A DNA stretch of 64,000 nucleotides from NCBI GenBank assembly GCA_002269645.1, contig NIVC01000445.1:186001-250000 (forward strand), written 5' to 3'. This document shows positions 830 to 60,483 of this stretch, piece by piece. The notes under the pieces were generated by a model. It was not told the DNA's origin and did no database searches. It saw only the letters and a list, made by a program, of their open reading frames with translations. Within the stretch, counting starts at the first letter, position 1; each line of letters opens with the position of its first letter. The stretch comes from Macrostomum lignano (lineage: Eukaryota). The translations under genes were made by a program, and so were the position numbers.

Positions 830-1199
830 CTAGTGAATGAAGACGCTGTCGTCTTCAAAGGTGGGACGATGGTTTATATATTGTTCGTAACTTTTATGGC
901 CTAATTTTAAATTTAAAAAAAAACTAAGAAGCTTAGTTGATTATAATTTAATTTAAACAAAGTTTAAGCATAACTATTTAAAAAAATTAATAAAAATACT
1001 TATGATGGTTTATTATGTCCATTATTGTTTATGGCTATGACCTATTTATTTAACCCAAATTAAGAACTAATTAAAACGCTATATCGTGTTTTTATATTTT
1101 ACGGCTATACTGCATTTTCAATTTGATTTAAACAAAGTTTATACATAACTGTGGAAATATAATAATAAAAAATATTTTATTAGATTACAAGAATATCCA

Positions 1200-1560
1200 C
1201 TCTGCTGTTGTGTAGAAAGGGTTGTTAAGGCGGTTGTTGTTGTTTGTTGGTTGTAAAAGGGGTTGTTGTTGTTGGGGTTTTTGTTGTTGTTGGGGTTGTT
1301 GTTGTTTTTGTTGGGGGTGGTTGTTGTTGGGGGTTTGCGTAACGTGGGGGCTGCCGCCCCCACACCCCCGCTCCCCCACCCCTCCCGCGCGTTGTTGTTG
1401 GGGAGGGTGGTTGTTGTTGGGGGTTTGCGTAACGTGGGGGCTGCCGCCCCCACACCCCCGCTCCCCCACCCCTCCCGCGCGTTGTTGTTGGGGAGGGTGG
1501 TTGTTGTTGGGGGTTTGCGTATTGTGGGGGCTGCCGCCCCCACACCCCCGCTCCCCCACC
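1200..1560. repeat. (GTT)-rich tract followed by ~2.7 copies of a 90-bp GC-rich minisatellite (cargo of U1)
   Basis: ttgttgttgggggtttgcgt recurs at 1321, 1411 and 1501. Confidence 0.9.
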
Positions 1561-1844
1561 TAACCCCTCCGCAAATTTTCCACCTCTAACACATCTTTTT
1601 AGCACGCTAAAACTGCTTGTAAGCCTTCTGGCGACCACGCAACACATACTTGCCGATATGTATCGTAATACTCTTTCTGCACTAACAAATCATCTGTGCC
1701 GCACTTTCAGCTTCACTCTTACTCTTTAATAAGGTATACAAGGAAAGGAAAATTAAACAATTAATATTAAATTATATTCAAGTGAAAGAGAATTGAAAAT
1801 ACTAATAAATCCGTTCCTGCTAAAAAAATTAAATATAAAAAAAC

Positions 1845-1915
1845 CTGGCCCACTTGGGATTCGAACCCGTGTTTAGGCCATTTACAAAGCAACTGCCTTC
1901 GGCCCCATCCATCTC
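1845..1915 (-). pseudogene. tRNA-like (Pol III type 2) cassette inside U1
   Basis: Minus strand: CGGGTTCGAATCCC T-arm/B-box followed by a T7 run; A-box and acceptor stem are degenerate. Confidence 0.5.
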
Positions 1916-2363
1916 TCGCTTAGCGAAGCTCTACAGTGCACGCGCTTTATATCGAATATTCCGTATGTATGGTAGCCACTTATACGATTTTTGCTGCTTT
2001 TTCATACATTTCTGCTCGCTGCATCGCAACGCCTTAACCTAAAAATACGAGTCGCATGTCGTTACAGAGATAACATCAAGGCGCATTCATCCAATGCATT
2101 TTCAAACTATGTCAACAAATTTTTTCGGCTGCTAGGCGCCAAATTATGAATTTTTACCTGTTCTGACAGGTATTCAAACAGGTATTTAGACCTGTTAACC
2201 TAAGAATCAGTTTTCAAAACTTATTTAGTTGCATAGTGCATCCATAATGCTGTTTTTAGACACCAAACTTGAGTCTCTAGGTCTCGCCAATGCAGAGTTA
2301 TTAGCAAAAGTATGCTCAAAATTTGCCCAAAAATGGCCTACTCAAAATTCGGAGCCAATTTTC

Positions 2364-4100
2364 TCAAAAATACGAATTTTCCAGCCATATTGGCGTATGA
2401 CCGGTGAAACTTCAGCTATTCGACTAAACAATATTGAAAATGCAGAAAAATCGGTGCGCAAAATTTCTTATTTTTCGACTTCAAAGTTTGTACCCCAAAT
2501 GGGCCGTTTTTCACTTAACAGGTAAAAAGTACCTGTTAACAGGTATTTTTTCCAGAGTGTCTTGCGCCATTCGAACGGGCATCCGATGGGCTACAATTTG
2601 ACACCACACTCGAAAAAATTCGCCCAGTAATAAAAATTTTTCTTTAACAACATATGTTTTTTGGTCGAGTCCCCCGGCCTCTTTTTTCCCCGGTTTCCGG
2701 GTCACTGCTCCGCACGGTAGGTCCAAATGCTTAGAAAATTTAGGAAAACAAATTTCCATATGTTTGACACGTTTTGTTAAAATCTCAACACCGTAGCTTA
2801 AAACACTTTCTTATTTTTGGAGACTACTTTTTGAAAACGTGACCCAAATTTTCAAAAACACTGTTTTTGACCCTTGTAGCCATATAGAGCAGCAATGAAT
2901 GGCCCAATCAAGCAGATCTCAGCATTTCCGAATAAAAGACATCCATTTGAGTGATTTGGGTTGAAAAATTGAAAAAATCAAGATTTGCATCTGTATAGGA
3001 TAAGCCTCTTTAAAGTGCACAAACGGTTTGTACTTTTAAAGTGCAGATAGGCAGCCATGTCAAAAGTACATTTTAGCCCAAAAAATTATAGCGCATCTAA
3101 AAGCCCCAGGTGTTGTTGACATTAGGCAGCAGCTCAAAAGCCGCGCTATTGCGCGTCCTTTTCGCTGCAGTACGGGCAAGGTTGAAAAACATGTACAAAA
3201 AATTGGCCGAAAAATTGCATTTTTAAAAATCAGATGCAGTTTGCTCAAAAATACGAATTTTCCAGCCATATTGGCGTATGACCGGTGAAACTTTAGCTAT
3301 TCGACTAAACAATATTGAAAATGCAGAAAAATCGGTGCGCAAAATTTCTTATTTTTCGACTTCAAAGTTTGTACCCCAAATGGGCCGTTTTTCACTTAAC
3401 AGGTAAAAAGTACCTGTTAACAGGGGTTTTTTCCAGAGTGTCTTATGTCATTCAAAAGGGCATCCGATGGGCTACAATTTGACACTACACTCGAAAAAAT
3501 TCGCCCATTTTAAAAAAATTTCCTTAACAACGTTTGATTTTCTGCAGAGCCCCCGGCCTCTTTTTTCCCTGGTTTCCGGGTCACTGCTCAGCACAGGTAG
3601 GTCCAAATGCTTAGAAAATTTAGGAAAACAAATTTCCAAATGTTTGACACGTTGTGTTAAAGTCTCAACACCGTAGCATAAAACACTTTCTTATTTTTTG
3701 GGACTACTTTTTAAAAACGTGACCCAATTTTTCGAAAATGTCGTTTTTAGGCACTCTTTGGCACCTGGGCAGGTTATTGATGGCCCAATCGGCCAAATCT
3801 CAATGTTTCCGAATAGAAGACATCCATTTGAGTAATTTGGTGTAGAAATATTAAAAAATAAAGTTTTCCATCTCGACGCCATAGGCCTCAAAAAGTGCAC
3901 TAAAAATTTGTACTTTTAAAGTGCAGATAGGCAGCCATGTGAAAAGTACATTTTAGCCGAAAAAAATTTAGCGCATCAAACAGCCTTAAGTGTTTTTAAG
4001 GCTAGGAGGCAGCTCAAAGGCCGCGCGAAAGCGCGTCCTTTTCGCTGCGGTGAGGCAAAGTTGAAAAAAATGCCAATTTTTCGACCTCAAAAAACACGTT
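2364..4100. repeat. Internal tandem duplication (~881-bp period) of the H1 core in U1
   Basis: ctcaaaaatacgaattttccagccatattggcgtatgacc occurs at ~2363 and ~3244; the first copy is more diverged. Only one copy is present in U2. Confidence 0.8.
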
Positions 4101-4654
4101 TTTTGTACTTTTACCTGTAAAGTGAAATTACAATCAAAAAATCCATTTCGGATCATTTTAGCGTTCGAATGCCCGCGTCTGCTGAGCCCACTCGCTAAGC
4201 GCTGCCATATTCTCAATCCTTATTTTTTGAGATCAAATTTTTTGACAATGTCGAAAAAACGCAGTTTTTGGTTGCCATGGCAACCAAAACGCGTCGCCAT
4301 GACAACCAAACACTGCGGATCTGTTAGCCCTAGGTCTTTGACGCATTTTGGCAAAAACCGTTTGTAAATCGGTCGTACCGTTTTTTATGCGCAGCGTTTC
4401 AAAGTTGAAAAACGTCATTTTCCTATGTGACACCGTTGCTACATCTTATCAGGGACGATTTCGCAAAAGTAAGCACCATAGAAAAAAATTCTCGCTTCGC
4501 TCGCCTTTTTTTCTATACTACTTACTGGCTCATCGTCCCACAACTAGTGAATGAAGACGCTGTCGTCTTCAAAGGTGGGACGATGGTTTATATTGTGTCC
4601 ATTATTGTTTATGGCTATGACATCTATTTATTTAACCTAAATTGAGAGCTAAAA

Positions 4655-6095
4655 AGCCCCCCACGCCCCTGGCATTAGTTAGTCTAGTGGTATAGTAGGG
4701 GGCTGGCCGCCCCCCACGCCCCTGGCATTAGTTAGTCTAGTGGTATAGTAGGGGGCTGGCCGCCCCCACGCCCCTGGCATTTATTAGTCTAGTGGTATAG
4801 TGGGGGGCTGACCGCCCCCACGCCCCTGGCATTTATTAGTCTAGTGGTATAGTGGGGGCTGGCCGCCCCCACGCCCCTGGCATTAGTTAGTCTAGTGGTA
4901 TAGTGGTATAGTGGGGGGCTGGCCGCCCCCCACGCCCCTGGCATTAGTTAGTCTAGTGGTATAGTGGGGGCTGGCCGCCCCCACGCCCCTGGCATTAGTT
5001 AGTCTAGTGGTATAGTAGGGGGCTGGCCGCCCCCCACGCCCCTGGCATTAGTTAGTCTAGTGGTATAGTGGGGGCTGGCCGCCCCCCACGCCCCTGGCAT
5101 TAGTTAATCTAGTGGTATAGTGGGGGCTGGCCGCCCCCACGCCCCTGGCATTAGTTAGTCTAGTGGTATAGTGGTATAGTGGGGGCTGGCCGCCCCCCAC
5201 GCCCCTGGCATTAGTTAGTCTAGTGGTATAGTGGGGGGCTCGCCGCCCCCCACGCCCCTGGCATTAGTTAGTCTAGTGGTATAGTGGGGGGCTGGCCGCC
5301 CCCCACGCCCCTGGCATTAGTTAGTCTAGTGGTATAGTGGGGGGCTGGCCGCCCCCCACGCCCCTGGCATTAGTTAATCTAGTGGTATAGTGGGGGCTGG
5401 CCGCCCCCCACGCCCCTGGCATTAGTTAGTCCAGTGGTATAGTGGTATAGTGGGGGCTGGCCGCCCCCACGCCCCTGGCATTAGTTAGTCTAGTGGTATA
5501 GTAGGGGGCTGGCCGCCCCCCACGCCCCTGGCATTAGTTAGTCTAGTGGTATAGTGGGGGCTGGCCGCCCCCACGCCCCTGGCATTAGTTAGTCTAGTGG
5601 TATAGTGGTATAGTGGGGGCTGGCCGCCCCCACGCCCCTGGCATTAGTTAGTCTAGTGGTATAGTGGGGGGCTGGCCGCCCCCCACGCCCCTGGCATTAG
5701 TTAGTCTAGTGGTATAGTGGGGGGCTGGCCGCCCCCCACGCCCCTGGCATTAGTTAGTCTAGTGGTATAGTGGGGGGCTGCATGGCCCCCCCCCACGCCC
5801 CTGGCATTTATTAGTCTAGTGGTATAGTGGGGGGCTCGCCGCCCCCAGGCCCCTGGCATTAGTTAGTCTAGTGGTATAGTGGGGGGCTCGCCGCCCCCCA
5901 CGCCCCTGGCATTAGTTAGTCTAGTGGTATAGTGGGGGCTGGCCGCCCCCCACGCCCCTGGCATTAGTTAGTCTAGTGGTATAGTGGGGGGCTGGCCGCC
6001 CCCCACGCCCCTGGCATTAGTTAGTCTAGTGGTATAGTGGGGGGCTGGCCGCCCCCCACGCCCCTGGCATTAGTTAGTCTAGTGGTAAAGGGGGG
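4655..6095. repeat. ~52-bp minisatellite, ~27 copies (cargo of U2)
   Basis: Unit gggggctggccgccccccacgcccctggcattagttagtctagtggtatagt with variable G/C run lengths. Confidence 0.95.
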
Positions 6096-6427
6096 CTGGC
6101 TCCCCCACCGCTCCACCACCCCTCGAGAACTTTTCCCACATCTAAACACGTCTTTGTAATATGTTACAACTATATTCTAGCCTTCAAACGACCAGACATC
6201 AAATACTTGCTTGCCGACATGTATCGTAATATACTTTTTGCACTAACAATCATACGTGCCGCACTAAAAGATTCACTGTTACTTTTTAAATACGTATAAA
6301 AAGAAAAATAAATTTAAATAAATGTAATTTAATTGTATAAAAAACATAATAGTTAGAGAAATAAAAATACAAAAAATCTGGATTCTGTTTGCTCTAAAAG
6401 AACTTTAAACTAAAAAATTTTTCGGAT

Positions 6428-6497
6428 CTCTTGGGAATCGAACCCTGCAGCACTCAATTGTATGGAAACTAACTCTGCCACTGAGCCACAATTTGCT
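6428..6497 (-). pseudogene. tRNA-like cassette with intact A and B boxes inside U2
   Basis: Minus strand: TGGCTCAGTGG (A box) ... GGTTCGATTCC (B box), then TTTTT; no good acceptor stem. Confidence 0.6.
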
Positions 6498-8242
6498 TAC
6501 TAAGTTGGCCTATAGTACACGTATTTTATATCGAATATCGCTAATAGCAGCCATTTCTACCATTTTTGCTGCTTTTTCATACATTTCTGCTCGTTGCATC
6601 GCAACGCTTCTACCTAAAAATACGAGTCGCATGTCGTTACAGAGATAACATCAAGGCGCATTCATCCAATGCATTTTCAAATTATGTCAACAAATTTTTC
6701 GGCTGCTAGGCGCCAAAATATTAATTTTCACCTGTTCTGACAGGTAATCAAACAGGTATTAAGACCTGTTAACCTAAGAATCAGTTTTCAAAACTGATTT
6801 AGCTGCATAATGCATCCATAGTGCTGTTTTTAGACACCAAACTTGAGTCTCTAGGTCTCGCCAATGCAGAGTTATTAGCAAAAGTATGCTCAAAATTTGC
6901 CCAAAAATGGCCTACTCAAAATTCGGAGCCAATTTTCTCAAAAATACGAATTTTCCAGCCATATTGGCGTATGACCGGTGTAACTTTAGCTATTCGACTA
7001 AACAATATTGAAAATGCAGAAAAATCGGTGCGCAAAAATTCTTATTTTTCGACTTCAAAGTTTGTACCCCCAAATGGGCCGTTTTTCACTTAACAGGTAA
7101 AAAGTACCTGTTAACAGGGGTTTTTTCATGAGTGTCTTATGTCATTCAAAAGAGCATCCAATAGGCTACAATTTGACACTACACTCGAAAAAATTCGCCC
7201 CATTTTAAAAAATTTTCCTTAACAACGTCTGATTTTCTGCAGAGCCCCCGGCCTCTTTTTTCCCTGGTTTCCGGGTCACTGCTCAGCACAGGTAGGTCCA
7301 AATGCTTAGAAAATTCAAGAAAACAAATTTCCATATGTTTGACACGTTGTGTTAAAGTCTCAACACCGTAGCTTAAAACGCTTTCTTATTTTTTGGGACT
7401 ACTTTTTAAAAACGTGACCCAGTTTTTCGAAAACGTCGTTTTTAGGCACTCTTTGGCACCTGGGCAAGTTATTAATGGCCCAATCGGCCAGATCTCAATG
7501 TTTCCGAATAGAAGACATCCATTTGAGTGATTTGGTGTAGAAATATTAAAAAATAAAGTTTTCCATCTCGACGCCATAGGCCTCACAAAAGTGCACTAAA
7601 AATTTGTACTTTTAAAGTGCAGATAGGCAGCCATGTGAAAAGTACATTTTAGCCCTAAAAACTATAGCGCATCAAACAGCCCCAGGTGTTATTGACGCTA
7701 TGAGGCAGCTCAAAGGCCGCGCTATCGCGCGTCCTTTTCGCTGCGGTGAGGCAAAGTTGAAAAAAATGCCGATTTTTCGACCTCAAAAAACACGTTTTTT
7801 GTACTTTTAGCCTAGACGTTAAAGTACAATAAAAAAATCCATTTCTGATCATTGTAGCGTTCGAATGCCCGCGTTTACTGAGCCAGCCCGCTAAGCGCTG
7901 CCATATTCTCAATCCTTATTTTTTGAGATCAAATTTTTTGACAATGTAGAAAAAACGCAGTTTTTGGTTGCCATGGCAACCAAAACGCGTTGCCATGGCA
8001 ACCAACTATTGTGCATCCGATAGCGCTAGGTCTTTGACACATTTTGGCAAAAACTGTTTGTAAATCAGTCGTACCGTTTTTTATTGGCAGCGTTTAAAAG
8101 TTGAAAAACGTCATTTTCCTATGTGACACCGTTGCTACATCTTATCAGGGACGATTTCGCAAAAGTAAGCACCATAGAAAAAAATTCTCGCTTCGCTCGC
8201 CTTTTTTTCTATACTACTTACTGGCTCATCGTCCCACAACTA

Positions 8243-8651
8243 GATAGGCCACTCAGGCATATATACTTAGCGAAACAGCTTTCTACTTTCAGTTCAGTAG
8301 CAAAGAAAAAAACATAAGCTGTTTAAAAAAATAACGGTTGCTGAAATGGCTTTGATAAGTTTAGAAGCCCACAAGCTTGCAGGCGTAAACAGCTTGCTAA
8401 TTGGTTCAGCAATAATGTACATTAGCCAGTCCACTGAAATGTACATGGCAAATTAGGCTGCTGAAATTCCAAGAAAGGCAATAAAAATTGGGGAGGGGTG
8501 GTGTGGAAAGGCGCGGTTGGAGAGTTTAAACTGGGGGGGGGGGTAAGAGCCAATCAATGAGCCTTGGCTTTTTCAATACATTAAAATGCTTCAGTTTAAC
8601 TTACTACTGAACTGAAAGTAGCTTACACGCAAATGTGCTGAGTGACCCATC
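8243..8651. mobile_element. MITE-like element with imperfect terminal inverted repeats
   Basis: GATAGGCCACTCAG / CTGAGTGACCCATC ends plus a perfect 18-bp inverted pair ctactttcagttcagtag (8283-8300) / ctactgaactgaaagtag (8604-8621). No clear TSD. Confidence 0.5.
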
Positions 8652-10285: not shown

Positions 10286-10296
10286 GAGTCACTCAC

Positions 10297-38372: not shown

Positions 38373-38899
38373 CGAAGTTATCAGTGATGTTGTACCACTT
38401 ATATAATTCAACACTCACACCAAGTCAGGTAGAGTAAAAAGTCTCACGAAGCAGTTATGACATAATCAATTTCTTAGGCAAGTCAGTACCAGTGTCTATG
38501 AAAGTTTACAATATGGTTACGTAATATAAATTCAGTACTGCGCTATGCTTTCACACTCAAAGCTGTGACGCAATTCAATTGAGTGTCAAATTCAGCCAGT
38601 ACACAGACGATAAATAAAGTGTATTGTGATGCAATCTATTTCAGAATCAGAAATCAACCAGTCAGTTTTTCTGCTAGCATTCTTACAATGCATTTCGATG
38701 CTTGACCTTTGCAAAAAAGCATGTTTTTCGAATATTTAATCCCTTTAGCATCGAGCAATTTCTTAGCCACGATGCATGTACCGTCACGGAATAATTTCTG
38801 ATCGAACAGTGCAGGTTCGAAGAAAATCGGTTCAGCCGTTTTTGCTAAAATCGATCACACACACACGCACACACAAACAGACCATTTTTAGTATATGGA

Positions 38900-45500: not shown

Positions 45501-46652
45501 TTAATATTCTACATGGTGGCTCTTTTATGTTCGACATGGTGGCTGTTTTTTGTTCTACTTGGTAACTCTTTTATGTTTGATACGGTGGCTTTTTAATGTC
45601 TGACATGGTGGCTCTTCTATGTTTAACATGGTGGCTCTTCTATGTTTGACACAGTGGCTCTTTAATTTTCGACAAAGTGGCTATTTGATGTTCGAAATGG
45701 TGGCTCTTTAAAGTTTGACATAAAGTCACATATATGTTTGACATGGTGGCTCTTAAATGTTTGACATGGTGGCTCTTAAATGTTTGACATGGGGGCTCTT
45801 AAATGTTTGACATGGTGGCTCTTAAATGTTTGACATGGTGGCTCTTAAATGTTAGACGTGGTGGCTTGTTTAGGTTTGACATAGTGGCTCTTCTATGTTT
45901 GAAATGGTGGCTTTTTAATCGTTGACATGGAGTCACGTATATGTTTGACATAGTGCTTATTTTATGTTTGACATGGTATCTCTTTTATATTCGAAATGTT
46001 GGCTCTATAATGTTCGACATGGTGGCTCTTCGTTGTTTGATATTGCGCTTCTATTATGTTTAGCAGTTTTGTTGTGTTTTTAAGGTGTTTTGATAAAAAA
46101 AATCTTTTTGCACTACTAAGATTCGAACCCAGGTCGCTACATTAGCATTCCAGTCTGTTCGCATCTTGGCTATATCTTTCCAATTGGAGAACGTGAATTG
46201 TGGCCCTTATAATTTAATTCTTACAGCAAGTCAATTGAAGTAAAAAGTTATGGCATAATCAATTTCTCAGTCAGCCAGTATCAGTCTCAATTTGAGTTAG
46301 CAATATTGGTTACGCAATTTAAATCAAGTCGTGTGTGCATTTCTTCGGCACTGTTTTCAACTTGTTGTGATGCAATCTTTATCACAATCGGAATTCAGCC
46401 AGTCAGTTTTTTCTCTAGCATTCTTACAATGAATTTTAGGTCGAAAGAGCTGCTTGTCCTTTGCAAAAAAGCATGTTTTTCGAATATTTAATCCCTTTAA
46501 CATTGAGCAATTTCTTAGCCAAGATGCATGTACCGTCCCAGGAAAATTTCTGATCAAATGGTGCAGGTTTGAAGAAAATCGGTTGAGCCATTTTTTCTGA
46601 AATCTATCGCATACCTACCCACATACAGACAACTCATTTTTAGTATATAGGA
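42557..46652 (-). mobile_element. Non-autonomous Helitron H2, unit C (4096 bp): 18-bp array (~42700-42860) + 23-bp array (~42950-46050)
   Basis: CTAG|TC junction at 46652/46653; core nearly identical to unit B. Confidence 0.8.
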
Positions 46653-47004
46653 CTAGCAATCTAGCGCCCCCCTTCGGGGTGGCCAATAAGCAAGGGACGA
46701 ATCCTTTAAAATGAAAAAAAAATTCTTAGGGAGGGGGGCTAGGAATCGAATTCTCATTTTAATTCCAGGCTTATGTACCAATAAAACATGCTTGTGCAGA
46801 ATTTTATAACAGACATTGAAATTCAACCATACTTGCCTTCTTTCAGAGCTACTTCTACCAGTATGCTTCAGTACGCTACCAGTACCCTTGTAAGCCTTGA
46901 CATGTCAGCAATCCCCCCCCACAAGCCTTAACATATCAACTCCCCCCTTGACATCTCAGCGATGCTTCCATAAGCCTTGAAATCTTAAAAAATCTGTCTA
47001 CTTT

Positions 47005-47044
47005 CTAACCCTAACCCTAACCCTAACCCTAACCCTAACCCTAA
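47005..47044 (-). repeat. Interstitial (TTAGGG)n tract inside unit D
   Basis: Six perfect CTAACC units plus CTAA on the plus strand. Confidence 0.9.
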
Positions 47045-47989
47045 AGCATTGAAATTTCAGTAATTCTCTCTAAGAGTCATTATAGCACTACTACAGCATT
47101 ATAGTGATTCCCCTCAAGCCTCGACATCGTAGGGATTCCCAAATGAATCTCTTAACTTCGACATGAAGCTTCTTTTATTTTTTACATTACGCTTTTTCTA
47201 TCAGCGATCCCTCCCGTGAGGAGCCAACAAATAATGTAATAACTTTTTTCCAATAAACTACATGTAGCTTCTGACATTAGCCTTGACATCTCATTTATTC
47301 CCCCGTGAGCCTTGACATCTCAGCTATAGATAGATAGATAGATAGATTCCCCTCGTAAGCCTTGACATGTCAGCGATGCCCCCCATAAACCTTGAAATCT
47401 AAAAAATCCCCTGTTAACCTTGAAACCCGCTAAAATCTAACCCTCAACCCAAACCTGACGTAAACCTAACTTTCACCCAACCTAAAGCCTTGAAATCACA
47501 GCAGTTCTTCTTCCCTAAGCCTTGGCATTTAAGTGATTCCTTCTTTAAGAATCACAGCACCATAACGATTCCCTCCAAGCTTTGACATCGTAGCAATTCC
47601 CAAATGAATCTTTAACTTTGACATGACTTTTATTTTATGTATACATAGTGCTCCTTTTATTTTTACATGACTCTTCTTCTATCAGCGTCCCCCCCACCGT
47701 GGCAAGCCAACAAAGAATACAATAAAAAAACTTAAGTAAAGTACATGTACTTTGAAGTAGCTTCTGACTTTTGCTTTAACATCTCAGAAACCCACATGTA
47801 ATCTCAGTTATTCTCTGTGAGCCTTGACGTCTCAGTAATTCTCCCCAGCACAGCACTATAGCTTCATTTAATTTTTATATGACACTTCTTTCATGTCTGA
47901 CATGACGCTTTTTTTGATTTTTACGTTACGCTTCTTTTATTCTTCCATGATGCTTCTTAATTTTTTAAATGACACTTTCATTAGTTTTT

Positions 47990-48815
47990 ATATGAGGCTT
48001 CTATGATTTTTTCATGACGCTTCTATGTTAACATGACGCTTCTATGCTTGTTTACATGACGCTTTTATGATTGTTTACATGACGCTTCTATGATTGTTTA
48101 CATGACGCTTCTATGATTTTTACATGACGCTTCTATGATTTTTACATGACGCTTCTATGATTTTTACATGACGCTTCTATGATTGTTTACATGACGCTTG
48201 TATGATTTTTTACATGACGCTTCTATGATTGTTTACATGACGCTTCTATGATTTTTTATGACGCTTTTATGATTGTTTACATGACGCTTCTATGATTTTT
48301 ACATGACGCTTCTATGATTTTTACATGACGCTTCTATGATTGTTTACATGACGCTTCTATGATTGTTTACATGACGCTTGTATGATTGTTTACATGACGC
48401 TTCTATGATTTTTTTATGACGCTTTTATGATTTTAACATGAGGCTTCTATGATTTTTTTACATGACGCTTCTATGATTGTTTACATGACGCTTGTATGAT
48501 TGTTTACATGACGCTTGTATGATTTTAACATAACGCTTCTATGATTGTTTACATTACGCTTCTATGATTGCTTGCATGACGCTTCTATGATTTTTTATGA
48601 TGCTTTTATTATTTTAACATGACGCTTCTATGATTTTTTTACATGACGCTTCTATGATTGTTTACATGACGCTTGTATGATTGTTTACATGACGCTTCTA
48701 TGATTTTTACATGACGCTTCTATGATTGTTTACATGACGCTTCTATGATTGCTTGCATGACGCTTCTATGATTTTTTACATGACGATTCTATGATTTTTT
48801 ACATGACGCTTCCAT
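47990..48815. repeat. 22-24-bp satellite (ACATGACGCTTCTATGATT(G)TTT)n, cargo of unit D
   Basis: Direct reading; same family as 61820-64000. Confidence 0.95.
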
Positions 48816-51800
48816 AATTTTTTTTGTCTTGGCGTGAAAAAGCTTTAATTAAAAAAACTCTACTCTCTAAAAATTCGAACCATCGTCCCTGCATTTAGCA
48901 GTTTAGTCTGTTTACCTCTAGGCTAGCTCTCATGAATTTTAGTCATTACCCCTAAATAGAAAATATTCCCAAGACAGCAAGCATCCCCCCAGTAGCAAGC
49001 ATCCCCTAATACTCCTAGCAAGCATCCACCCAGATAGCAAGCATCTGCAGATAGCAAGCATCTTGCAGATAGCAAGCATCTTGCAGATAGCAAGCATACC
49101 CCAAATAATGTAGAAGCATCCTTCCAGATAGCAAGCATCCCCCAAATAATGTAGAAGCATCCTTCCAGATAGCAAGCATCCTGCACATAGCAAGAATCCC
49201 TAAATAGCAAGCATCCCTGGATAGAAATAATCCTATACATGTAGCCAAGCTTATCAAGCGCAGTAATCCTTGGCTATCGAGTGCAGTAATCCTTGGTTTA
49301 TTAATAGCAATAATCCATGGCTTATCGAGTGCAGTAATTCTTGGTTTGCCAAGTGCAGTAAGTAATCCTTGGTTTATTAATAGCAATAATCCATGGCTTA
49401 TCGAGTGCAGTAATCCTTGGTTTATTAATAGCAATAATCCTTGGCTTATCGAGTGCAGTAATCCTTGGTTTATTAATAGCAATAATCCATGGCTTATCGA
49501 GTGCAGTAATCCTTGGTTTATTTATAGCAATAATCCTTGGCTTATCGAGTGCAGTAATCCTTGGTTTATTTATAGCAATAATCCTTGGCTTATCGAGTGC
49601 AGTAATCCTTGGTTTGCCAAGAGCAATAATCTTTAGCTTATCGAGTGCAGTAATCTAAGTGTTTTTATTTAGTCTTTAATAAAAGCTTTTAATAAAAAAT
49701 TTTACACTACTACTTAGATTCGAACCCAGGTCGCTGCATTAGCAGTCTGGTCTGTTCAGCTCTAGGCTAGCTCTCATCGAAGTTATCAGTGAATTTGTAC
49801 CACTTATATAATTCAACACTCACACCAAGTCAGGTAGAGTAAAAAGTCACACGAAGCAGTTATGACATAATCAATTTCTTAGGCAAGTCAGTACGAGTAC
49901 CAGTGTCTATGAAAGTTAACAATATGGTTACGTAATATAAATTCAGTACTGCACTATGCTTTCACACTCAAAGCTGTGACGCAATTCAATTGAGTGTCAA
50001 ATTCAGCCAGTACACAGACGATAAATAAAGTGTATTGTGATGCAATCTATTTCAGAATCAGAATTCAACCAGTCAGTTTTTTCTCTAGCATTTTTACAGT
50101 GCGTTTCAAGTCGAAATAGCTGCTTGACCTTTGCAAAAAAGCATGTTTTTCGAATATTTAATCCCTTTAGCATCGAGCGATTTCTTACCCACGATGCATG
50201 TACCGTCACGGAATAATTTCTGATCGAATGGTGCAAGTTCGAAGAAAATCGGTTGAGCCGTTTTTGCTAAAATCGATCACACACACACACACATACCGAC
50301 AGACCATTTTTAGTATATGGACTAGCAATCTTCGCCCCCCGATGGGGGACATCTAGATAGAATCTCTGTTCTCTACAAGTATCAATAAGATGGCCAAACA
50401 AAGCCTTCACATAGTCAATAGAAAAACTGCTCAGATGAAGTGCAATGCGAAAAGAAAACATCCTAAGACAGCAAGCATACCCCCAGATAGCAGGCACCCC
50501 CCAGATAGCAAGCACCTCCCAGATAGCAAGCATCCCCCCAGATAGCAAGCACCCCCCAGATAGCAGGCACCCCCAGATAGCAAGCATCCCCCAGATAGCA
50601 AGCACCCCAGATAGCAAGAACCCCCAGATAGCAAGCACCCCCCAGATAGCAAGCATCCCCCCAGATAGCAAGCACCCCCAGATAGCAGGCACCCCCAGAT
50701 AGCAAGCATCCCCCAGATAGCAAGCACCCCAGATAGCAAGCACCCCCAGATAGCAAGCACCCCAGATAGCAAGCGACCCCAGATAGCAAGCACCCCCAGA
50801 TAGCAAGCACCCCAGATAGCAAGCACCCCCAGATAGCAAGCGACCCCAGATAGCAGGCACCCCCAGATAGCAGGCACCCCAGATAGCAAGCACCCCAGAT
50901 AGCAAGCACCCCCAGATAGCAAGCACCCCAGATAGCAAGCACCCCCAAATAGCAAGCACCACCAGATAGCTAGCACCCCCAGATAGCAGGCACCCCCAGA
51001 TAGCAGGCACCCCCAGATAGCAAGCACCTCCAGATAGCAAGCACCACCAGATAGCAAGCACCCCCAGATAGCAGGCTCTCCCAGATAGCAAGCACCCCCA
51101 GATAGCAGGCGACATGGTGGCTTTTTACTGTTAGACATGGTGGCTCTTTAATGTTCGACATAGTGGCTCTTTAATGTTAGACATGGTGGCTCTTTAATGT
51201 TTGACATGGTGGTTCTTTAATGTTAGACATGGTGGCTCTTTAATGTCAGACATGGTGGCTCTTTAATGTTCGACATAGTGGCTCTTTAATGTTAGACATG
51301 GTGGCTCTTCTATGTTTGACATGGTGGCTCTTCTATTTTTGACATGGTGGCTCTTTAATGTTCGACATGGTGGTCCTTTAATTTTTGACATAGTGGCTCT
51401 TTACTGTTAGACATGGTGGCTCTTTAATGTTCGATATGGTGGCACTTTAATGCTTGACATCATGCCAGATTTATGTTTGACATGGTGGCCCTTTTTTATG
51501 TTTTACATGGTGGCTCTTTAATATTCGACATGGTGGTTCTTTAATGTTCGACATGGTGGCTCTTTAATGTCAGACATGGTGGCTCTTTAATGTTCGACAT
51601 AGTGGCTCTTTAATGTTAGACATGGTGGCTCTTCTATGTTTGACATGGTGGCTCTTCTATTTTTGACATGGTGGCTCTTTAATGTTCGACATGGTGGTCC
51701 TTTAATTTTTGACATAGTGGCTCTTTACTGTTAGACATGGTGGCTCTTTAATGTTCGATATGGTGGCACTTTAATGCTTGACATCATGCCAGATTTATGT

Positions 51801-52438
51801 TTGACATGGTGGCTCTTTAATGTTCGACTTGGTGGCTCTTTTAGGTTTGACATGGTGGCTCTTTAATGTTCGACATGGTGGTTCTTTAATGTTCTACATG
51901 GTGGCCCTTTAATGTTCGACATGGTGGCTCTTTAATGTTCGACATGGTGGCTCTTTTAGGTTTGACATGGTGGCTCTTTAATGTTCGACATGGTGGTTCT
52001 TTAATGTTCGACATGGTGGCTCTTTTATGTTCTACATGGTGGCCCTTTAATGTTCGACATGGTGGCTCTTTAATGTTCGATATGGTGGCACTTTAATGTT
52101 TGACATCATGCCAGATTTATGTTTGACATGGTGGCTCTTTTCTGTTAGACATGGTGGGTCTTTTTGGTTTGACATGATGGCACTTTTATGTTTTGACATG
52201 GCGGCTCTTTAATGTTTTACATGGTGGCTCTTTAATGTTCGACATGGTGGCTCTTTAATGTTCGACATGGTGGCTCTTTAATGTTAGAAATGGTGGCTCC
52301 TTAATGTTTCACATGGTGGCTCTTTAATGTTCGACATGGTGGCTCTTGACTTGACTTAGCTGCAGGGCTGTCCCGGAGGGGACACAGCGGGAAGGCGCGG
52401 GCGCCCATTCCGCTAGTCCCTGAACGGCCGACGCGTCG

Positions 52439-55400
52439 CTATGGACGGAGGGTTGGCGCCGCCCAGGGAGGTCCCCCAGTGTCGCCAGCAGCTATGGTGC
52501 TCTCTGGAAAGGAGAGTTCAGCCCTGCGGGTGGCCCGAAGGTAGCGCATGAGCTGATTAAAGTTTTCGGGTTTGCACGCTTCAGTAATAGATGTGTGTGG
52601 CCCGAGGTAAGTGAGTCTGGCCCGCGTGAAGGCGGGACAGATGCTGACGAAATGCTCAGCGGTTTCGTCACCTGAGTTGCAGAAACTACAGGTGGCGTTG
52701 GTGGCGTTGCCCTGCAGGTACTGGTGCCTGGAGAAGCAGCCGTGACCAGAGAGGGTCATGGTGGCAGCCCGGATGTCTCTGCGCGAGAGGCGCAAGAGGA
52801 GCTTCCGGAGCTGGTGAGAGGGCTGAGGGACAGCGCCTCTGGTTTGCCTGCAGTTCGTGCGGTTCGCCCAAGTCGAGCGGTGCTGAGTCCTGATCCACGC
52901 TTTGATGCGCGAGTCGATGACACAGCCAGGAATCGGGACAAGAGGTTCGGGGCCGAGAGAGGAGCCGGAGGCACCAACTTTTGCAAGGGTGTCAGCCAAC
53001 TCATTTCCTCGGATCCCCACATGCCCCGGAACCCACTTAAGGGTAATTTTGTTGGCGGAACCCAACACATTGAGGAGTTTGATACAGTCAAGGACTGTAG
53101 CAGAGTTGGTGCTGCAGCCACTGATGGCGTGCAAGGCAGCTTGGCTGTCCGAATGGAAAATGATGTTCTTACCAGTAACGCCAGTGGCGAGAAGCTCTGC
53201 AGTGCAGGAGCTGATGGCCAGAACTTCATTTTGGAAAACACTGGAGTTGACCCCAGTGTATTGAGCGTGGGTAGCGATGACCCTCCCGTTCAGAAAGATT
53301 CCAACACCAAAGCCGGTGTTGGCTGACTGCTTAGAACCGTCGGTGTAGCAATGAAGCTCACCAGGGTTCCAATGGTCATTGATGTTATCGCGCGAGTCGA
53401 TAGCTACGGAGTAGCGCTGTCTCAGGTTGAGCGTTGAGGCAATGCCATCGGTGAAGACGCGATTGGCCTGACACTCGTTGAGAAAGTTGAGGCACAGATC
53501 GCTATGCGGGACAAGGTTCCGCTTAGCAGGTGCTCTCATGTAAATGAATTTGACGCCGGCATCAATTAGACGCCGCGTCGTTCTAGCCGCCTCACCCCTG
53601 ATGAAGAGGTCAAGAGGCGGAAGATTAAGAAAGGCCCCCATGCCAGCAAAGGGCGTGGACCTGGTGGCGTTGCAGATGAGCCTACACGCTCTGCCTTGGA
53701 TCGTGTTGAGCAGGTCTGCATGGCTTTTGACCTGGGTAGCGCTAACCCAGACAACAGAGGCGTACGTAATGGCAGGTCTAACTACGGAAGTATAGATCCA
53801 CCAAAGCCGCTTTGGGGATAGACCCCAAGAAGTGCCAAGTGCTCGTCGGAGCTGGGCCAGGATGGCTGAGGCACGCTTAGCTTTTGCTTTCACGTGGAAG
53901 GACCAGTTGAGCCGGTGGTCAAGTGTGACCCCGAGACATCTGGTCTGGTGCGCGAAGGCAATATCTCTGCCGTAGAGCTGCAGAGGACGTATGTTCCAGC
54001 GTAGTCTGCTGGTAAACATAATGGCAACGGTTTTGGGCTCAGAGAGTTCCAAACCATTGTCATTGGCCCAGGATTCTGCTTTGCGGATAAAGCTCTGCAT
54101 CAGATCCCTGAGCGTGCTGGGAGACGGTCCTGCCACAATGGCCGTGACGTCATCAGCATACCCGACTTTGAAGACGGGGTCAGGTCGGGAGTCACTCAGA
54201 AGAGCGTCCATGACCAGGTTCCAGAGCGTCGGGGTGAGGACTCCGCCTTGGGGTCCACCCTTACAGACTCTGGTGGAGGCAGTTTGCCCAAGAAGTTGGG
54301 CAGTGACCGTACGGTTGGAGATCATGTACATGATCCACCGTATGAGGGTAGCATGAGCTTTGCGATTTTGAAGGGCCCTCTGAAACGCTTCAAAGATAAC
54401 GTTGTCGAAGGCGCCAACAATGTCAAGAAAGAGAGCCAGGGCGTAACCGTCACCCAGTACCGCCCGTTCAATCTTTTCGACAATCGCATGCAGGGCGCTG
54501 TCAGTCGACCTCCCGGTACGGAAGGCGTGCTGATTATTGCTGAGGGGCATCGCTGTCAGCTCGCAGGAGAGCAGCCGCCAGAGAATAAGCCTCTCAGTGA
54601 GCTTAAGCATTGCTGACGTTAAGCTAATTGGCCGGAAGGCCTTGACGCTTTGGTAGTCACCCTTCCCAGGTTTGGGAATAAAGACTACTCGAGCTTCAGT
54701 CCAGCTTTTGGGAACGTATCCCAGCTGGATAGAGGCCCGCATAAGATTGCGGGTGAGTCTCAGGAACGAGGGTATCTTGGCTGCTTCACGAAGGAGAACA
54801 GGGTAGATACCATCAGGTCCAGGAGATTTGAAGGGTTTGAAGGTTCTGACCGCACGAGCGATTAGGTCTTCAGTGACAATGCCCGCCGCTAGGGTGGCTC
54901 CATCCATCGAATGGTTGGGCTCCGGTCTAGCAGTAGGTACCCTCGGGAAGAATGTGCTAAGCATATGCTGAAGCACTTCTTCAGGGTCTTTAGTAAGAGA
55001 GCCATCATCTTTTTTATCATGGCTAATTTGGACATTTTGTCCATTGTAAGGGCCTTGACAAGCCTAGAAGTAGGTCTGTCTTGATCCAATTCATTGCAGA
55101 ATTGGCGCCACTTACATTCCTTGGCCTTGCGCACTTCAGATTTGAAATTGCGGGAGGCTTGCCGGAAAAGCTCCATGTCCTCCGGGTTTCCGGTCTTCAT
55201 GGCACGGCGATGAAGGCTTTTGGCCTTCCGCCTGAGTTTCCCCAGCTCCGGGTTCCACCACGGCGCCGAGGTCTTGCCTCTGTAGGCGCGAGCAGGACAA
55301 GCCGCTTCGTAGGCTGCAATAATGCAACCTGTCAGCGTCTCAGCCATATGATCCACATCCTCGCAGGTCTCAATCGGACGTAAGTCCGTGAGTTCCTGCA

Positions 55401-56177
55401 GGTGCAGATCAAGGGCAGCCTTGTAGGCCGCCCAATCAGTGTTGCGGATATTGCGTCTCCAAGTGATCGGAGACTGGGTTTTAGTGTCCGCGATATTAAA
55501 GGCGATAAAGCAGTGGTCAGACAGGGAGGGCTCCTCAGACCAGACTCTCCACTCCTTGACTCTGTCAAAGAGTCTTGGGGTAACGAGTGTGGCGTCGAGG
55601 ACCTCGGTCCATCTGCCATTATTAAAGGTAGGAGTGCTGCCGCGGTTGCAGAGCATGAGGTTTGTGTTAGAGATGAGGGCCAGAAGCTCCTCTCCTCTAG
55701 TGTTGGTATCTTTGCTGCCCCAGTGCTTGTGGTGCGCGTTGAGGTCGCCCCCTAAGCACAGCTCAGCGTTCTGGGACTCGCAGTACTGCGCAAGGCGCAG
55801 TAAACTCTCGGAGCAGGGTCTCTGTCGCCTGGGATATAAACCGAGGCAACAAGACACGTACGCGGAGAGAAATGATTAGATTGGATGACGCAAAGGTCTC
55901 CATCAGAGAGATCAGTCCTCAGCCAAGCCTGGAGATGGCTAGCAGCGAGGATAGCCGCTCTAGGGCGGCTGTTCCCCGGGCCACACACATAAAAATCAGA
56001 GTAGCCAGAGGGAATGTTGGGCAACTTACCGTTGCGCATCCAGGGTTCCTGGATCAGGATGAGGCCTGGCCTGTACAGCTCAGCAATCTTCATCAGATTT
56101 ACTGACGCAGATACGCAATGCTGTAAATTTATTTGCAGACAGAATGTCGCTCCTTTGGCAGCGTGGAGCTTAGTCAT
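52439..56177 (-). CDS. LOA ORF2 (pol), split by two single-base frameshifts (~55810, ~55012)
   Basis: APE QINLQH/IQEPW, GGDLNAHH, SDH; RT FRPISLTS, QHAFRTGRST, PQGGVLTP, YADD; RNase H YTDGSK, E, DSQAA, GNELAD; C-terminal CSFC...HFVSIC. Confidence 0.9.
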
Positions 56178-56216
56178 ACTGTATTAAATGCAATATCTGG
56201 CTAGAGCCCAGGGCCA

Positions 56217-57777
56217 TCAAGGAGACTTGGACAACAGATCGTCCTCGTCCCAGGCCGCTGGGGCTTGACTGGGAGATGGGAGTTGGTCGACGTCCATGGC
56301 CTCCTCACCCCCACCGGCCCCCCAGCAGAGTCCTCAGGCTCCGATGACAGGATGGAGGAAGCTCCTCACCTGCATCTTTACCTTCAGACCCCACCAAGGT
56401 GGCCGAGGAGAGCTCGGATTCCGAAGACCCGGCCTCGTCCTCAACTCCTTCTCCGACTGGCAGGTTTGGTTCCCGGGGCTCGGCCGGAGCCGTTACCGCG
56501 GTCGCCGAACTGCTGCTAGCAGAGGGGCGAGATGCAGCTTTGGCTTTGGGATCGGCTTGCGCCTTTCCTTGGGCCTTAGACTGCGCCCCGCTCTTGCCGG
56601 AGATGCCGGGGTTGGCAGTAGCCTTCCCTTTGGCAGACTTTCCTCGGCGCAACTTGAGCTTGAGGGCACCCAGCTGGAAAGAGGATCCATTAGGGTACCG
56701 ACTCGCCCAAGTGCTGGAAAGGCCGAGGACAATTGAGTTGCCCGTCTCCCCCCTGCGGACTTTGCGGTGATACACCAGTCCACTAGCAGGGAGGTCGGGG
56801 TTCAGACGCAGTAGGACCCGGCGAATAACGTCTGGTCCAGCTGCGGTGCTCTTAGCAGGGACGAAAACCACATAAGGTATCGTCTTTGGACGCTGGCCCT
56901 CGCGAAGAAAAAGAGCTCCACCAAGGTCAGCATCCAAGGAGACCGTCGGTAGCCGCTGGAGCAGCCGCCGAGCGTCCTCCTCGCTGCTAGGAGCAATAAG
57001 AACGAATGTGCTTCGCAGCACCATCCGCTCAACGCCGATGGAGATTCCCTCCTCGACAGTCAGCTCAATCAGATAGGAGTCAACAGCACTCCACACTTTT
57101 TGAAGCTGATCAGTGGTCCAGTCCTGGTCGCGACCTTGGATGATCACTCCCGGGATTTTGGCCTTGGCCTTCGCCGCAAAGGTAGCTCCCGAAGGAACCT
57201 CCTTGTTGGCAGTGGCCATTTGTTGCGCCGTGGTTTCGGCCTCAGCAGCCGCGGCAGCAGCTCCAGGGAGCGCCGCCGCTGAACTACTGGAGCTTCCACC
57301 GGCCGGCCCGCCTGGTTGCCTTGGGACTCCAGTCGCTTCAGCATCCATGGTGGACGCCGCCGCTTTGGCCCCCGCAGCTCCCTTCTTGGCCTGCCTTTTG
57401 GCGCGTTGTTTAGCGCGTTTGCGCTCAAGCCGAGCCCGCTGAGCTTCATCGGATCTGCCAGATTTGGCCGGTCCTTTAGGCTCAGAGCTCGCGGTTCCCT
57501 TAGATCCACCAGCGGAGCTGGCAGGTCTTAGGGTATTTTGAGTTTGGTAGCTCTGGTCGGATCTGCCAGCAGAGCCAGCCGGTCCTTCCTTTGCCACAGT
57601 TGAATCAGTCGGTTGGGATCTGCCAGCAGGGCCGGCCGGTCCTTCGGACTGAGGTTGGGGTTTAGAAGGGTCCCCGTCCCTAGAAATAGCTTGTTTATCC
57701 ATAGTCGGCTCGAAGGCCATGATAAAAGGTTGGTGGGCTACCCTCAAAGGGGCGCGGTACCCACCCGGCCGCTCCAC
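56217..57777 (-). CDS. LOA ORF1 (gag-like, no CCHC knuckle seen); frameshift near 56310 leads to an acidic C-terminus ...MDVDQLPSP...DEDDLLSKSP*
   Basis: 490-aa ORF directly upstream of ORF2; IRRVLLRLNPDL segment recalls DUF4780-type LOA ORF1 (from memory, not searched). Start codon uncertain (57777, 57720 or 57702). Confidence 0.75.
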
Positions 57778-60483
57778 CTGACCGGGCAGTAGGCCAATAG
57801 CACCCTCAAGGCTGGCCCGACACCAGGAGGGGGACCGCTTGCGACCGGACTACTCCCCGGCCTTCCAGCCCATCGGCACGGTCAACACCTTAGGCATTAG
57901 AGAGTACGTTGAGCAGTACCACGGCCTGCAGGTTGGCGAGCCAGACCCGCATACCCAAATTCGGCCGAAGCCACTGGATAGGGTCGCCAGCGCCGGAGCC
58001 CAGTCTGTCCAGCAGCCCTAGGGACTGCCTTGAACACACGCGGGGACGAGTACCCTGGGTCGACTTGCGAGACAGCGTGGGGGGGGTCTGCGGCTGCCAG
58101 AGGCAAATAGAGGGTGCAGACCTCCCACCAGCCTTGACCTGCTGAAGATAGGGGCAGGCGTGAAGCATCGCAGACCTTAGCCCATGGGCCTAGTCTGTCT
58201 CATACTTCACTGGCATGCTGAATACGCCTTCGCGTGCGACATGGTGGCTCTTTAATGTTTGACATAAAGTCACATATATGTTTGACATGGTGGCTCTTAA
58301 ATGTTTGACATAGTGGCTCTTTAATGTTCGACATGGTGGCTCTTAAATGTTTGACATGGTGGCTCTTTATTATTCTACATGGTGGCTCTTTTATGTTCCA
58401 CATGGTGGCTCTTTAATGTTCTTCATGGTATAGCTCTTTTATGTTAGACATGGTGGCTCTTTAATGTTCGACATAGTGGCTTTTTAAGGTTTGAAATGGT
58501 AACTCTTTAATGTTTGACATAAAGTCACATATATGTTTGACATGGTGGCTCCTAAATGTTTGACATGGTGGTTCTTTATGTTTTGACATGGTGGCTCTTT
58601 TATGTTCGACATGGTGGCTCTTTTATGTTTGACATGGTGGCTCTTTAATGTTCGACAAAGTGGCTCTTTAATGTTTAACATGGTGGCTCTTAAATGTTTG
58701 ACATGGTGGCTCTTTAATGTTCGACATGGTGGCTCTTTAATGTTCGAAATGGTGGCTCTTAAATGTTTGACATGGTGGCTCTTTAATATTCTACATGGTG
58801 GCTCTTTTATGTTCCACATGGTGGCTCTTTAATGTTCTTAATGGTATAGCTCTTTTATGTTAGACATGGTGGCTCTTTAATGTTCGACATAGTGGCTTTT
58901 TAAGGTTTGAAATGGTAGCTCTTTAATGTTTGACATAAAGTCACATATATGTTTGACATGGTGGCTCCTAAATGTTTGACATGGTGGTTCTTTATGTTTT
59001 GACATGGTGGCTCTTTTATGTTCGACATGGTGGCTCTTTTATGTTTGACATGGTGGCTCTTTAATGTTCGACAAAGTGGCTCTTTAATGTTTGACATGGT
59101 GGCTCTTAAATGTTTGACATGGTGGCTCTTTAATGTTCGACATGGTGGCTCTTTAATGTTCGAAATGGTGGCTCTTAAATGTTCGACATGGTGGCTCTTT
59201 AATGTTTGACATGGTGGCTTCTAATTGTTTGACATGGTGGCTCTTAAATGTTCAAAATGGTGGCTCTTTAATGTTCGAAATGGTGGCTCTTTAATGTTCG
59301 AAATGGTGGCTCTTTAATGTTTGACATTGTGGCTCTTTTATGTTCGACATGGTGGCTCTTTTATGTTTGACATGTTGGCTCTTTTATGTTTGACAGGGTG
59401 GCTCTTAAATGTTTGACATGGTGGCTCTTAAATCTTTGACATGGAACCTTCTAAATGTTTGACATGGTGGCTCTTTAATGTTCTTCATGGTGGCTCTTTT
59501 ATGTTTGACATGGTGGCTCTTTATTGTTCGACATGGTGGCTCTTCTATGTTTGATATGGTAACTCTTTTATGTTCGATATGTTGGCTCTTCTATGTTTGA
59601 CATTGCGCTTCTTTGATGTTTAGCAGTTTTGTTGTGTTTTAAAGGTGTTTTAATAAAAAAAATCTTTTTGCACTACTAAGATTCGAACCCAGGTCGCTAC
59701 ATTAGCATTCCAGTCTGTTCGCATCAGGGCTATCTCTTTTCAATTGGAGAACATGAATTGTGGCCCTTATAATTCAATTCTTACAGCAAGTCAATTGGAG
59801 TAAAAAGTTATGACATAATCAATTTCTCAGTCAGCCAGTATCAGTCTCAATTTAAGTTAGCAATATGGTTACGCAATTTCAATCAAGTCGTGTGTGCATT
59901 TCTTCGGCACTGTTTTCAACTTGTTGTGATGCAATCTTTATCACAATCGGAATTCAGTCAGTCAGTTTTTTCTCTAGCATTCTTACAATGCATTTCAAAG
60001 TCGAAAATTTGGCTTGACCTTTGCAAAAAAGCATGTTTTTCGAATATTTAATCCCTTTAACATTGAGCAATTTCTTAGCCAAGATGCATGTACCGTGCCA
60101 GGAATATTTCTGATCGAATGGTGCAAGTTTGAAGAAAATCGGTTGAGCCATTTTTTCTGAAATCTATCGCATAGCTACAGACATTTCATTTTTAGTATAT
60201 GGGAATAGCAATCTACGCCCCCCGTTGGGGAGCCAAAGAAATGCAATACACGTATTTTTAATAAGCTACATGTAGCCTTGAAATCTTAAAAAATCTCCTG
60301 TCAAAATTCTAACCCTAACCAAAACCCTAAATTCAATATTTTGTCCATGAGTTTTTGCATGATCGATGCTTCTATGATTTTTGGCATGACGCTTCCATTG
60401 TTTTTGCATGACGCTTCCATTATTTTTGCATGATGCTTCCATGATAAACATTTTTAATAAGCTAAATGAGTTAAGTTATAAGC

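What the first reader, a model, noticed from the sequence alone, without database searches (positions are those of the whole stretch)
830..60204. Unit length stays near 3.7-4.1 kb across two unrelated rolling-circle families despite very different contents
Seen: the complete units measure 3714 and 3696 (H1) and 3805, 3657, 4096, 3669 and ~3978 bp (H2; E after removing the LINE). U1 has a short array (~0.36 kb) but an extra ~0.88-kb core duplication. U2 has a 1.4-kb array and no duplication. D is a chimera yet is still 3669 bp. Tandem arrays normally vary freely in length. Inference: mobilisation selects for a size window, such as a transposase/circle optimum or a packaging limit like that of small ssDNA viruses. 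I cannot distinguish these from sequence, and n=7 is small.
Basis: partly seen in the sequence, partly recalled or inferred. Interest (0 to 1): 0.7.

Follow-up and report, generated by a model that had tools for sequence, protein, structure and literature searches.

The report
Helitron arrays lacking fixed size window
These are two families of rolling-circle jumping elements padded with satellite repeats; elsewhere in the genome their copies run from under 2 to over 8 kb (9-11 kb when they carry the transposase gene), so the near-equal 3.7-4.1 kb sizes here are likely a chance sample from the common middle of a broad spread, not a virus-like packaging limit.

Summary
All seven lengths are right, but the size window is not. 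H1 is a non-autonomous Helentron-type (HLE2-like) element and H2 a canonical non-autonomous Helitron, both with central satellite arrays. The same H2 array continues past the window with units of 4,824 and 6,224 bp. Elsewhere in the genome, 27 of 143 insertion-free units measure 3.65-4.10 kb; H2 spans 1.7-6.9 kb and complete H1 units 1.7-8.5 kb. Within a lineage the body is fixed and length follows the array. The youngest H1 burst centres on 6.0 kb, and a 6,208-bp copy has an empty site with identical flanks. RepHel-encoding copies with the same ends are 9.1, 10.1 and 11.4 kb; related 0.35-kb minis sit in the same arrays. No capsid gene was found (no positive control). A hard limit is refuted. 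What survives: both families peak near 3.5-4.2 kb, bigger-bodied lineages carry shorter arrays (permutation P 0.004-0.03, few independent lineages), and this locus is tighter than random draws give (P about 5e-4, uncorrected). A soft length bias, already proposed in print, stays possible. Side find: H1 targets ACTAG. The scan's earlier notes held no size-window finding.

The parts
1..833 (-). H1 unit U0, window part only (whole unit 4064 bp, starts at G000:C445:182770)
834..4547 (-). H1 unit U1, 3714 bp: non-autonomous HLE2-like element; hairpin and subTIR at the 834 end, 90-bp array 1262-1560, core duplicated (2318-3193 / 3199-4072), subTIR and ACTAG at the 4547 end
   Evidence: strand taken from the RepHel ORF of the 11.4-kb partner
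4548..8243 (-). H1 unit U2, 3696 bp: 53-bp array 4656-6108 (1453 bp), single core
35095..38899 (-). H2 unit A, 3805 bp: non-autonomous Helitron (5' TC at 38899, hairpin + CTAG 3' end at 35095), 24-bp array
38900..42556 (-). H2 unit B, 3657 bp: 18-bp and 23-bp arrays, body 0.82 kb
42557..46652 (-). H2 unit C, 4096 bp, B-type
46653..50321 (-). H2 unit D, 3669 bp: chimera of F-type and A-type modules; same chimera at G000:C6:1082470 is 4533 bp
50322..60204 (-). H2 unit E, B-type, 9883 bp with LINE, about 3978 bp without
52348..58237 (-). Non-LTR retrotransposon (ORF1, endonuclease, RT, RNase H) inserted in the array of E
60205..64000 (-). H2 unit F, cut by the window; whole unit 4824 bp, followed by unit G of 6224 bp

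Best explanation
The units are non-autonomous rolling-circle elements whose length is a lineage-fixed body plus a freely varying satellite array, and the 3.7-4.1 kb run in this window is likely a chance, window-truncated sample from the peak of two broad, overlapping length distributions. Shown: bodies are constant within a lineage (0.85 kb H2-B, 1.6 kb H2-F, 2.2 or 3.1-3.4 kb H1); arrays range 0.2-6 kb; copies of one recent master share its array length roughly and then scatter; RepHel copies with the same ends are 9-11 kb. Inferred: those RepHel copies mobilise the units in trans by the Helitron circle pathway, which needs ends and no capsid; arrays are built by repeated insertion at the end of an earlier copy (ACTAG for H1, the junction next to a Helitron end for H2), so neighbours are independent draws; arrays tend to shrink after insertion.
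For: Outside C445, insertion-free units: H2 n=86, 1666-6922 bp, median 3555, 11 in 3.65-4.10 kb; H1 n=57, median 4183, IQR 3841-5652, 16 in range. Total length tracks array length (r 0.76 H1, 0.93 H2). H2-B alone, body 0.65-0.95 kb, spans 1952-6922 bp (n=33). H1 copies at least 99% identical to another in the body: 3836-7742 bp, median 5086, 6 of 27 in range; largest young group, 10 copies, median 6047. The 6208-bp copy at C1052 has an empty site at C893 with identical flanks. RepHel copies with shared ends: 9093, 10141, 11439 bp. Only 3 of 34 H1 and 0 of 31 H2 neighbours are near-identical, and neighbours share a subfamily no more than by chance. No within-array length correlation elsewhere. 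In single-core H1, younger copies have longer arrays (rho 0.48, P 0.007, n=31; not seen in three other lineages).
Against: Both unrelated families peak close to 4 kb (58 of 86 H2 and 30 of 57 H1 within 3.0-4.6 kb; second H2 sample median 3967). Body and array are negatively correlated across lineages; H2-B and H2-F differ in array (P 1e-4) but not in total (P 0.46). All lengths come from one assembly and were not checked on long reads.
Confidence: 0.68

Rival explanations
1. Soft length bias. Transposition efficiency (or tolerance by the host) falls gradually with total length while arrays keep expanding, so successful masters settle near 3.5-5 kb and lineages with larger bodies carry shorter arrays. 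No capsid and no sharp window.
For: Medians of 14 young groups are 2.9-6.0 kb, CV 0.18, body vs array rho -0.62, permutation P 0.004; 11 lineages permutation P 0.026; adding the 0.88-kb core to the same 53-bp lineage goes with shorter arrays (P 0.064) and equal totals (P 1.0; 9 vs 9). An inverse relation between repeat number and mobility was proposed by Scalvenzi and Pollet as cited in PMC7492417 (passage; original not read).
Against: The groups are related and carry different satellites, so there are only about four or five independent contrasts. The largest recent H1 burst came from a master of about 6 kb; younger single-core H1 copies are longer, not shorter; 9-11 kb copies moved too. No correlation within lineages (P 0.18-0.48, weak test because bodies hardly vary).
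Confidence: 0.22
2. Assembly or sampling bias: long arrays are collapsed or broken, and pairing ends inside 10-20 kb stretches drops long copies, which makes the peak and part of the trade-off.
For: 22 of 86 H1 starts, 13 of 88 and 9 of 39 H2 ends found no partner end in the DNA fetched; one of them proved to be 11.4 kb. Arrays are known to assemble badly (established knowledge).
Against: Arrays of 5-6 kb, units of 9-11 kb and clusters of 20-30 kb are assembled with distinct, diverged monomers. The bias would hide long copies, so the true spread would be wider, which also counts against a window.
Confidence: 0.08
3. Hard limit: circles are packaged into a small ssDNA-virus-type capsid, or the transposase accepts only about 4 kb.
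For: Seven units within 440 bp here; Helitrons pass through circles (PMC5876387, passages).
Against: Recent copies of 6-7.7 kb, one with an identical empty site; RepHel copies of 9-11 kb and minis of 350-378 bp in the same arrays. No Circo_capsid, Denso_VP4 or Parvo_coat match in G000 (no positive control rang, so weak). No capsid family among 38 ORF pieces from two RepHel elements. In Helraiser, ssDNA circles did not integrate; donors had to be double-stranded (PMC5876387).
Confidence: 0.02

Closest known systems
HINEs / DINE-1: non-autonomous Helentrons with central tandem repeats (PMC4067079; oyster Cg_HINE, PMC7492417; passages)
   Same: H1 has an 11-bp subterminal inverted repeat, a 3' palindrome, a central satellite array of variable length, related flanks carrying unrelated arrays, and a RepHel partner with the Helentron GSPH signature and DUF6570.
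   Different: H1 does not insert at T|T: ACTAG precedes 47 of 47 non-tandem starts (45 exactly, 2 with one extra base) and the one empty site holds a single ACTAG. No endonuclease domain was seen in the partner. Arrays reach 5.5 kb.
Canonical Helitrons (HLE1) and their non-autonomous copies, e.g. Heli1Xen1 (PMC12001565, passages); Helraiser mechanism (PMC5876387, passages)
   Same: H2 reads 5'-TC ... hairpin CTAG-3', mostly between A and T, forms head-to-tail arrays, and has intron-split RepHel partners. Non-autonomous copies show a modal length with wide tails, as reported for Heli1Xen1 (peaks 152-1747 bp by species).
   Different: The mode here is about 3.5-4 kb because 1-6 kb of satellite is carried; arrays mix subfamilies.
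Proto-Helentron of Phytophthora (5' TT, 3' CTAG; PMC4067079, PMC11417382; passages)
   Same: In one register H1 reads 5'-TT ... CTAG-3' and its RepHel is HLE2-type without a detected endonuclease.
   Different: Proto-Helentron inserts at A|T; H1 inserts at CTAG|T and has the ordinary HLE2 layout with the hairpin at the 3' end.
Tandem TEs by double insertion at a preferred site (PMC5932611, passages)
   Same: Mixed neighbours with the target motif kept once at each junction.
   Different: Described there for elements with target duplications in Drosophila; here for rolling-circle elements.
Small ssDNA viruses with capsid-limited genomes (recalled)
   Same: HUH Rep and circular intermediates.
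   Different: No capsid found; lengths span more than 30-fold.

Membership tests
Canonical Helitron (HLE1) - H2 | 5' TC and 3' CTRR ends | tested here: met
   Minus strand begins TCC(T/C)ATATAC and ends CTAG in the units listed
Canonical Helitron (HLE1) - H2 | Palindrome about 11 bp from the 3' end | tested here: met
   C-run / G-run palindrome starts about 11 bases inside CTAG, read by eye; not folded
Canonical Helitron (HLE1) - H2 | Insertion between A and T | tested here: met
   T follows CTAG at the true 3' ends; A precedes TC in 15 of 24 non-tandem 5' ends
Canonical Helitron (HLE1) - H2 | No target-site duplication | not tested
   No empty site was sought for H2
Canonical Helitron (HLE1) - H2 | Autonomous partner with RepHel of Helitron type (L before PH) | tested here: met
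   C40:95636 and C353:93111 share both ends with unit B at 80-91%; Helitron_like_N and PIF1; GLPHVH
Helentron / HLE2 - H1 | Subterminal inverted repeats of 11-17 nt and a 3' stem-loop | tested here: met
   11-bp subTIR at both ends and an 8-bp-stem hairpin outside the 3' copy
Helentron / HLE2 - H1 | RepHel with S in GSPH, F..R before motif 2, and DUF6570 | tested here: met
   1514-aa ORF in the 11,439-bp element at C172: FWFRIEYQSRGSPHVH; DUF6570, Helitron_like_N, PIF1; criteria
Helentron / HLE2 - H1 | Insertion at T|T without target change | tested here: not met
   Empty site has one ACTAG, filled site has ACTAG on both sides (one site, two paralogues); so H1 is filed as HLE2-like, not as a typical member
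Helentron (endonuclease-encoding) | C-terminal endonuclease domain | tested here: not met
   None in the 1281 + 232 aa scanned; longer ORFs of other copies (up to 2162 aa) were not scanned
Capsid-limited ssDNA replicon | Narrow genome length | tested here: not met
Capsid-limited ssDNA replicon | Capsid gene in cis or in the genome | tested here: inconclusive
   Three Pfam families gave no match and no control rang; none in 38 ORF pieces
Capsid-limited ssDNA replicon | Encapsidated circles | not testable with these tools
   Needs particle or ssDNA sequencing

The most novel reading that the evidence does not exclude
Two unrelated rolling-circle transposases work under one shared, host-set length budget of about 4-5 kb for trans-mobilised elements, so each lineage fills the room its body leaves with satellite DNA; the arrays are stuffers tuned to a circle-size optimum, and one of the two families homes to a fixed ACTAG site that rebuilds itself at every insertion.
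Probability: 0.18. Interest if true: 0.5.

Novelty: new member of a known kind. Interest (0 to 1): 0.2.

Why it matters
As found, it is a warning about small samples cut by a window: a modal length looks like a limit. The two families are new examples of satellite-carrying Helitron and Helentron-type elements. If the soft trade-off is real, it would give a measurable rule for how much satellite a rolling-circle element can carry, which bears on how short satellite arrays are spread in animal genomes. The strict ACTAG target of H1, with intact young RepHel copies, may be the more useful lead: a site-specific HLE2 that builds mixed arrays by serial insertion.

Tried and rejected
Concatemer origin of the arrays: rejected, 3 of 34 and 0 of 31 neighbours near-identical. 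D as an accident of two truncated elements: rejected, the same chimera occurs elsewhere. Local length correlation as a general property: not found. RepHel genes near H1 ends at C509 and C100 as H1 partners: rejected, they lie within H2-like ends; C293 unresolved. Empty site for the window's own H1 array: paralogues L154/L155 match the right flank but not the left, so uninformative. H1 as a Replitron (short direct repeats, PMC10288648, passages): rejected, the partner has a fused helicase and DUF6570. Terminal patterns in viral contigs: 0 matches each (prokaryote-heavy collection, weak). Public runs holding H1 are all kept as contigs (20 rows), which cannot resolve arrays or circles, so none was laid. 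Literature searches showed no paper on a size window for Helitrons or on an ACTAG-targeting HLE2; most subscription papers and Repbase are outside the library and no supplements were read.
Full report
Setting. The window is G000:C445:186001-250000 in a 764-Mb genome, an animal by its content (earlier AI notes call it a flatworm; not tested). It holds two clusters of head-to-tail elements, H1 at 1-8243 and H2 at 35095-64000, with no BLAST similarity between them.

Observation. The seven lengths are correct: 3714, 3696, 3805, 3657, 4096, 3669 and, for E, 3993 without the LINE or 3978 after removing one 15-bp duplication. The module descriptions also hold. But the set is what the window happened to contain. 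The H2 array goes on with units of 4824 and 6224 bp, and the H1 array begins with 4129 and 4064 bp. Nine of eleven units at this locus lie within 472 bp.

What H2 is. On the minus strand each unit reads 5'-TC ... palindrome, CTAG-3', followed by T and mostly preceded by A: a canonical non-autonomous Helitron by the criteria in PMC4067079 (passages). There are 460 exact tandem junctions. Subfamilies differ in body and satellite: B 0.85 kb, A 1.0 kb, F 1.2-1.8 kb, D 2.05 kb. Units of 9093 and 10141 bp inside H2 arrays share both ends with unit B and encode an intron-split RepHel.

What H1 is. It has an 11-bp subterminal inverted repeat, a hairpin at one end and ACTAG at both ends. An 11,439-bp element at C172 shares the ends (87-93%) and carries a 1514-aa ORF with DUF6570, Rep (GSPH signature) and PIF1, which marks HLE2/Helentron type. 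Eleven copies of this Rep are 94-100% identical, several in ORFs above 2000 aa. The target departs from the T|T rule: an empty site holds one ACTAG and the filled site one on each side.

Length test, sampling. I took the first 100 of 194 H1 hairpin-end hits and fetched 60 stretches from contigs C12-C1095; 86 starts lay in them and 64 had a partner end. For H2 I fetched 59 stretches around the earliest-listed junction hits plus C353: 88 starts, 75 complete. A second H2 sample took 39 loci by the 5' end alone: 30 complete, 26 insertion-free. Copies were not fully screened for segmental duplicates, and long copies are under-counted.

Length test, result. H1 complete units span 1691-8532 bp, 19 of 64 within 3.65-4.10 kb; H2 complete units span 1952-11603 bp, 10 of 75. 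Outside C445 and without nested insertions, 11 of 86 H2 (1666-6922, median 3555) and 16 of 57 H1 (median 4183, IQR 3841-5652) are in range. Within a lineage the body is fixed and total length follows the array. U1-type units are tight (3570-4429, n=19) only because their array is short. Related minis of 350 and 378 bp sit head-to-tail in H2 arrays; that the same enzyme moves them is inferred.

Young versus old. Selection at mobilisation should make recent copies narrowest. For H1 they are not: copies at least 99% identical in the body span 3836-7742 bp, median 5086 (n=27), and the largest young group has median 6047 with six copies at 5.9-6.2 kb in different flanks. One 6208-bp copy has an empty site whose flanks are identical. 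Two of 14 young groups have a median in 3.65-4.10 kb.

Both families peak near 4 kb. Body and array are negatively correlated across lineages: rho -0.56 over 11 lineages (P 0.07; permutation P 0.026) and -0.62 over 14 young groups (permutation P 0.004). These permutations treat related lineages as independent, so they overstate the case; I count about four or five real contrasts. The locus itself is tighter than random draws (P 2e-4 and 5e-4). Other arrays show no such clustering, and the locus was picked because it looked tight, but I cannot fully account for it.

Capsid. No match for three ssDNA-virus capsid families in G000, without a working control; none among 38 ORF pieces of two RepHel elements. 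Helitron circles need no capsid and work as dsDNA (PMC5876387, passages).

Mechanism. Shown: fixed bodies, variable arrays, shared ends with RepHel copies, mixed neighbours. Inferred: trans-mobilisation by those RepHels; serial insertion at earlier ends, as in the double-insertion model (PMC5932611, passages); inheritance of a master's array length followed by drift, perhaps with net shrinkage. I give 0.68 to this reading, 0.22 to a soft length bias, 0.08 to assembly or sampling bias and 0.02 to a hard limit.

Comparison and novelty. Satellite-carrying non-autonomous Helentrons and Helitrons, with modal lengths and wide tails, are in print (PMC7492417, PMC4067079, PMC12001565; passages), and so is an inverse link between repeat number and mobility (cited in PMC7492417; original not read). 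PMC9659126 (passages) added nothing. The families are new members of known kinds; the size window is not a genome-wide feature. Interest 0.2.

Noticed in passing
window 829-833, 4543-4547, 8239-8243; L059 vs L164, L165: H1 targets ACTAG: present before all 47 non-tandem starts and once in an empty site. Not the T|T rule of HLE2; each insertion rebuilds the target, which would explain mixed tandem arrays.
   Followed up: partly
G000:C172:699569-711007 (L143+L011); also C382, C521, C1176, C2148, C3655: Young, apparently intact HLE2-type RepHel copies (94-100% identical, ORFs to 2162 aa): candidate active partner of H1.
   Followed up: partly
G000, 34 places such as C2:17541, C336:11213, C567:1230: A second HLE2-type RepHel, 73% identical, with 34 equal-scoring copies (ORFs to 2015 aa); 17 lie within 8 kb of a contig start. 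Very young family, assembly breaks or chromosome-end placement.
   Followed up: no
G000:C59:377869, C48:74963, C6:1087511: Mini-Helitrons of 350-378 bp with a near-identical 5' end but other 3' ends, head-to-tail inside H2 arrays.
   Followed up: partly
window 47005-47044, 60485-60908: Telomere-like (CCCTAA)n tracts inside D- and F-type H2 bodies.
   Followed up: no
window 8244-8670: A ~430-bp repeat with inverted ends and at least 40 copies; the H1 array abuts it at an ACTAG, and its left flank does not match the two paralogous loci.
   Followed up: partly
window 24062-29336 (-): Non-LTR element with an intact 1199-aa endonuclease-RT-C2H2 ORF and the same 12-bp array at both ends (24062-24842, 28944-29336).
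   Followed up: no
window 10459-10920 (-) and 29400-29820 (-): Host exons: a GATA-type zinc finger and a universal-stress-protein-like piece (both recalled motifs, not scanned).
   Followed up: no
L103:7404-8015 (-): ORF piece in the H2 RepHel element with an OTU-protease-like look (recalled motif; no Pfam match).
   Followed up: no
G000:C172, about 3.85-4.1 kb inside the 11.4-kb H1 element: A 240-bp piece of H2 5' sequence nested in the H1 autonomous copy.
   Followed up: no
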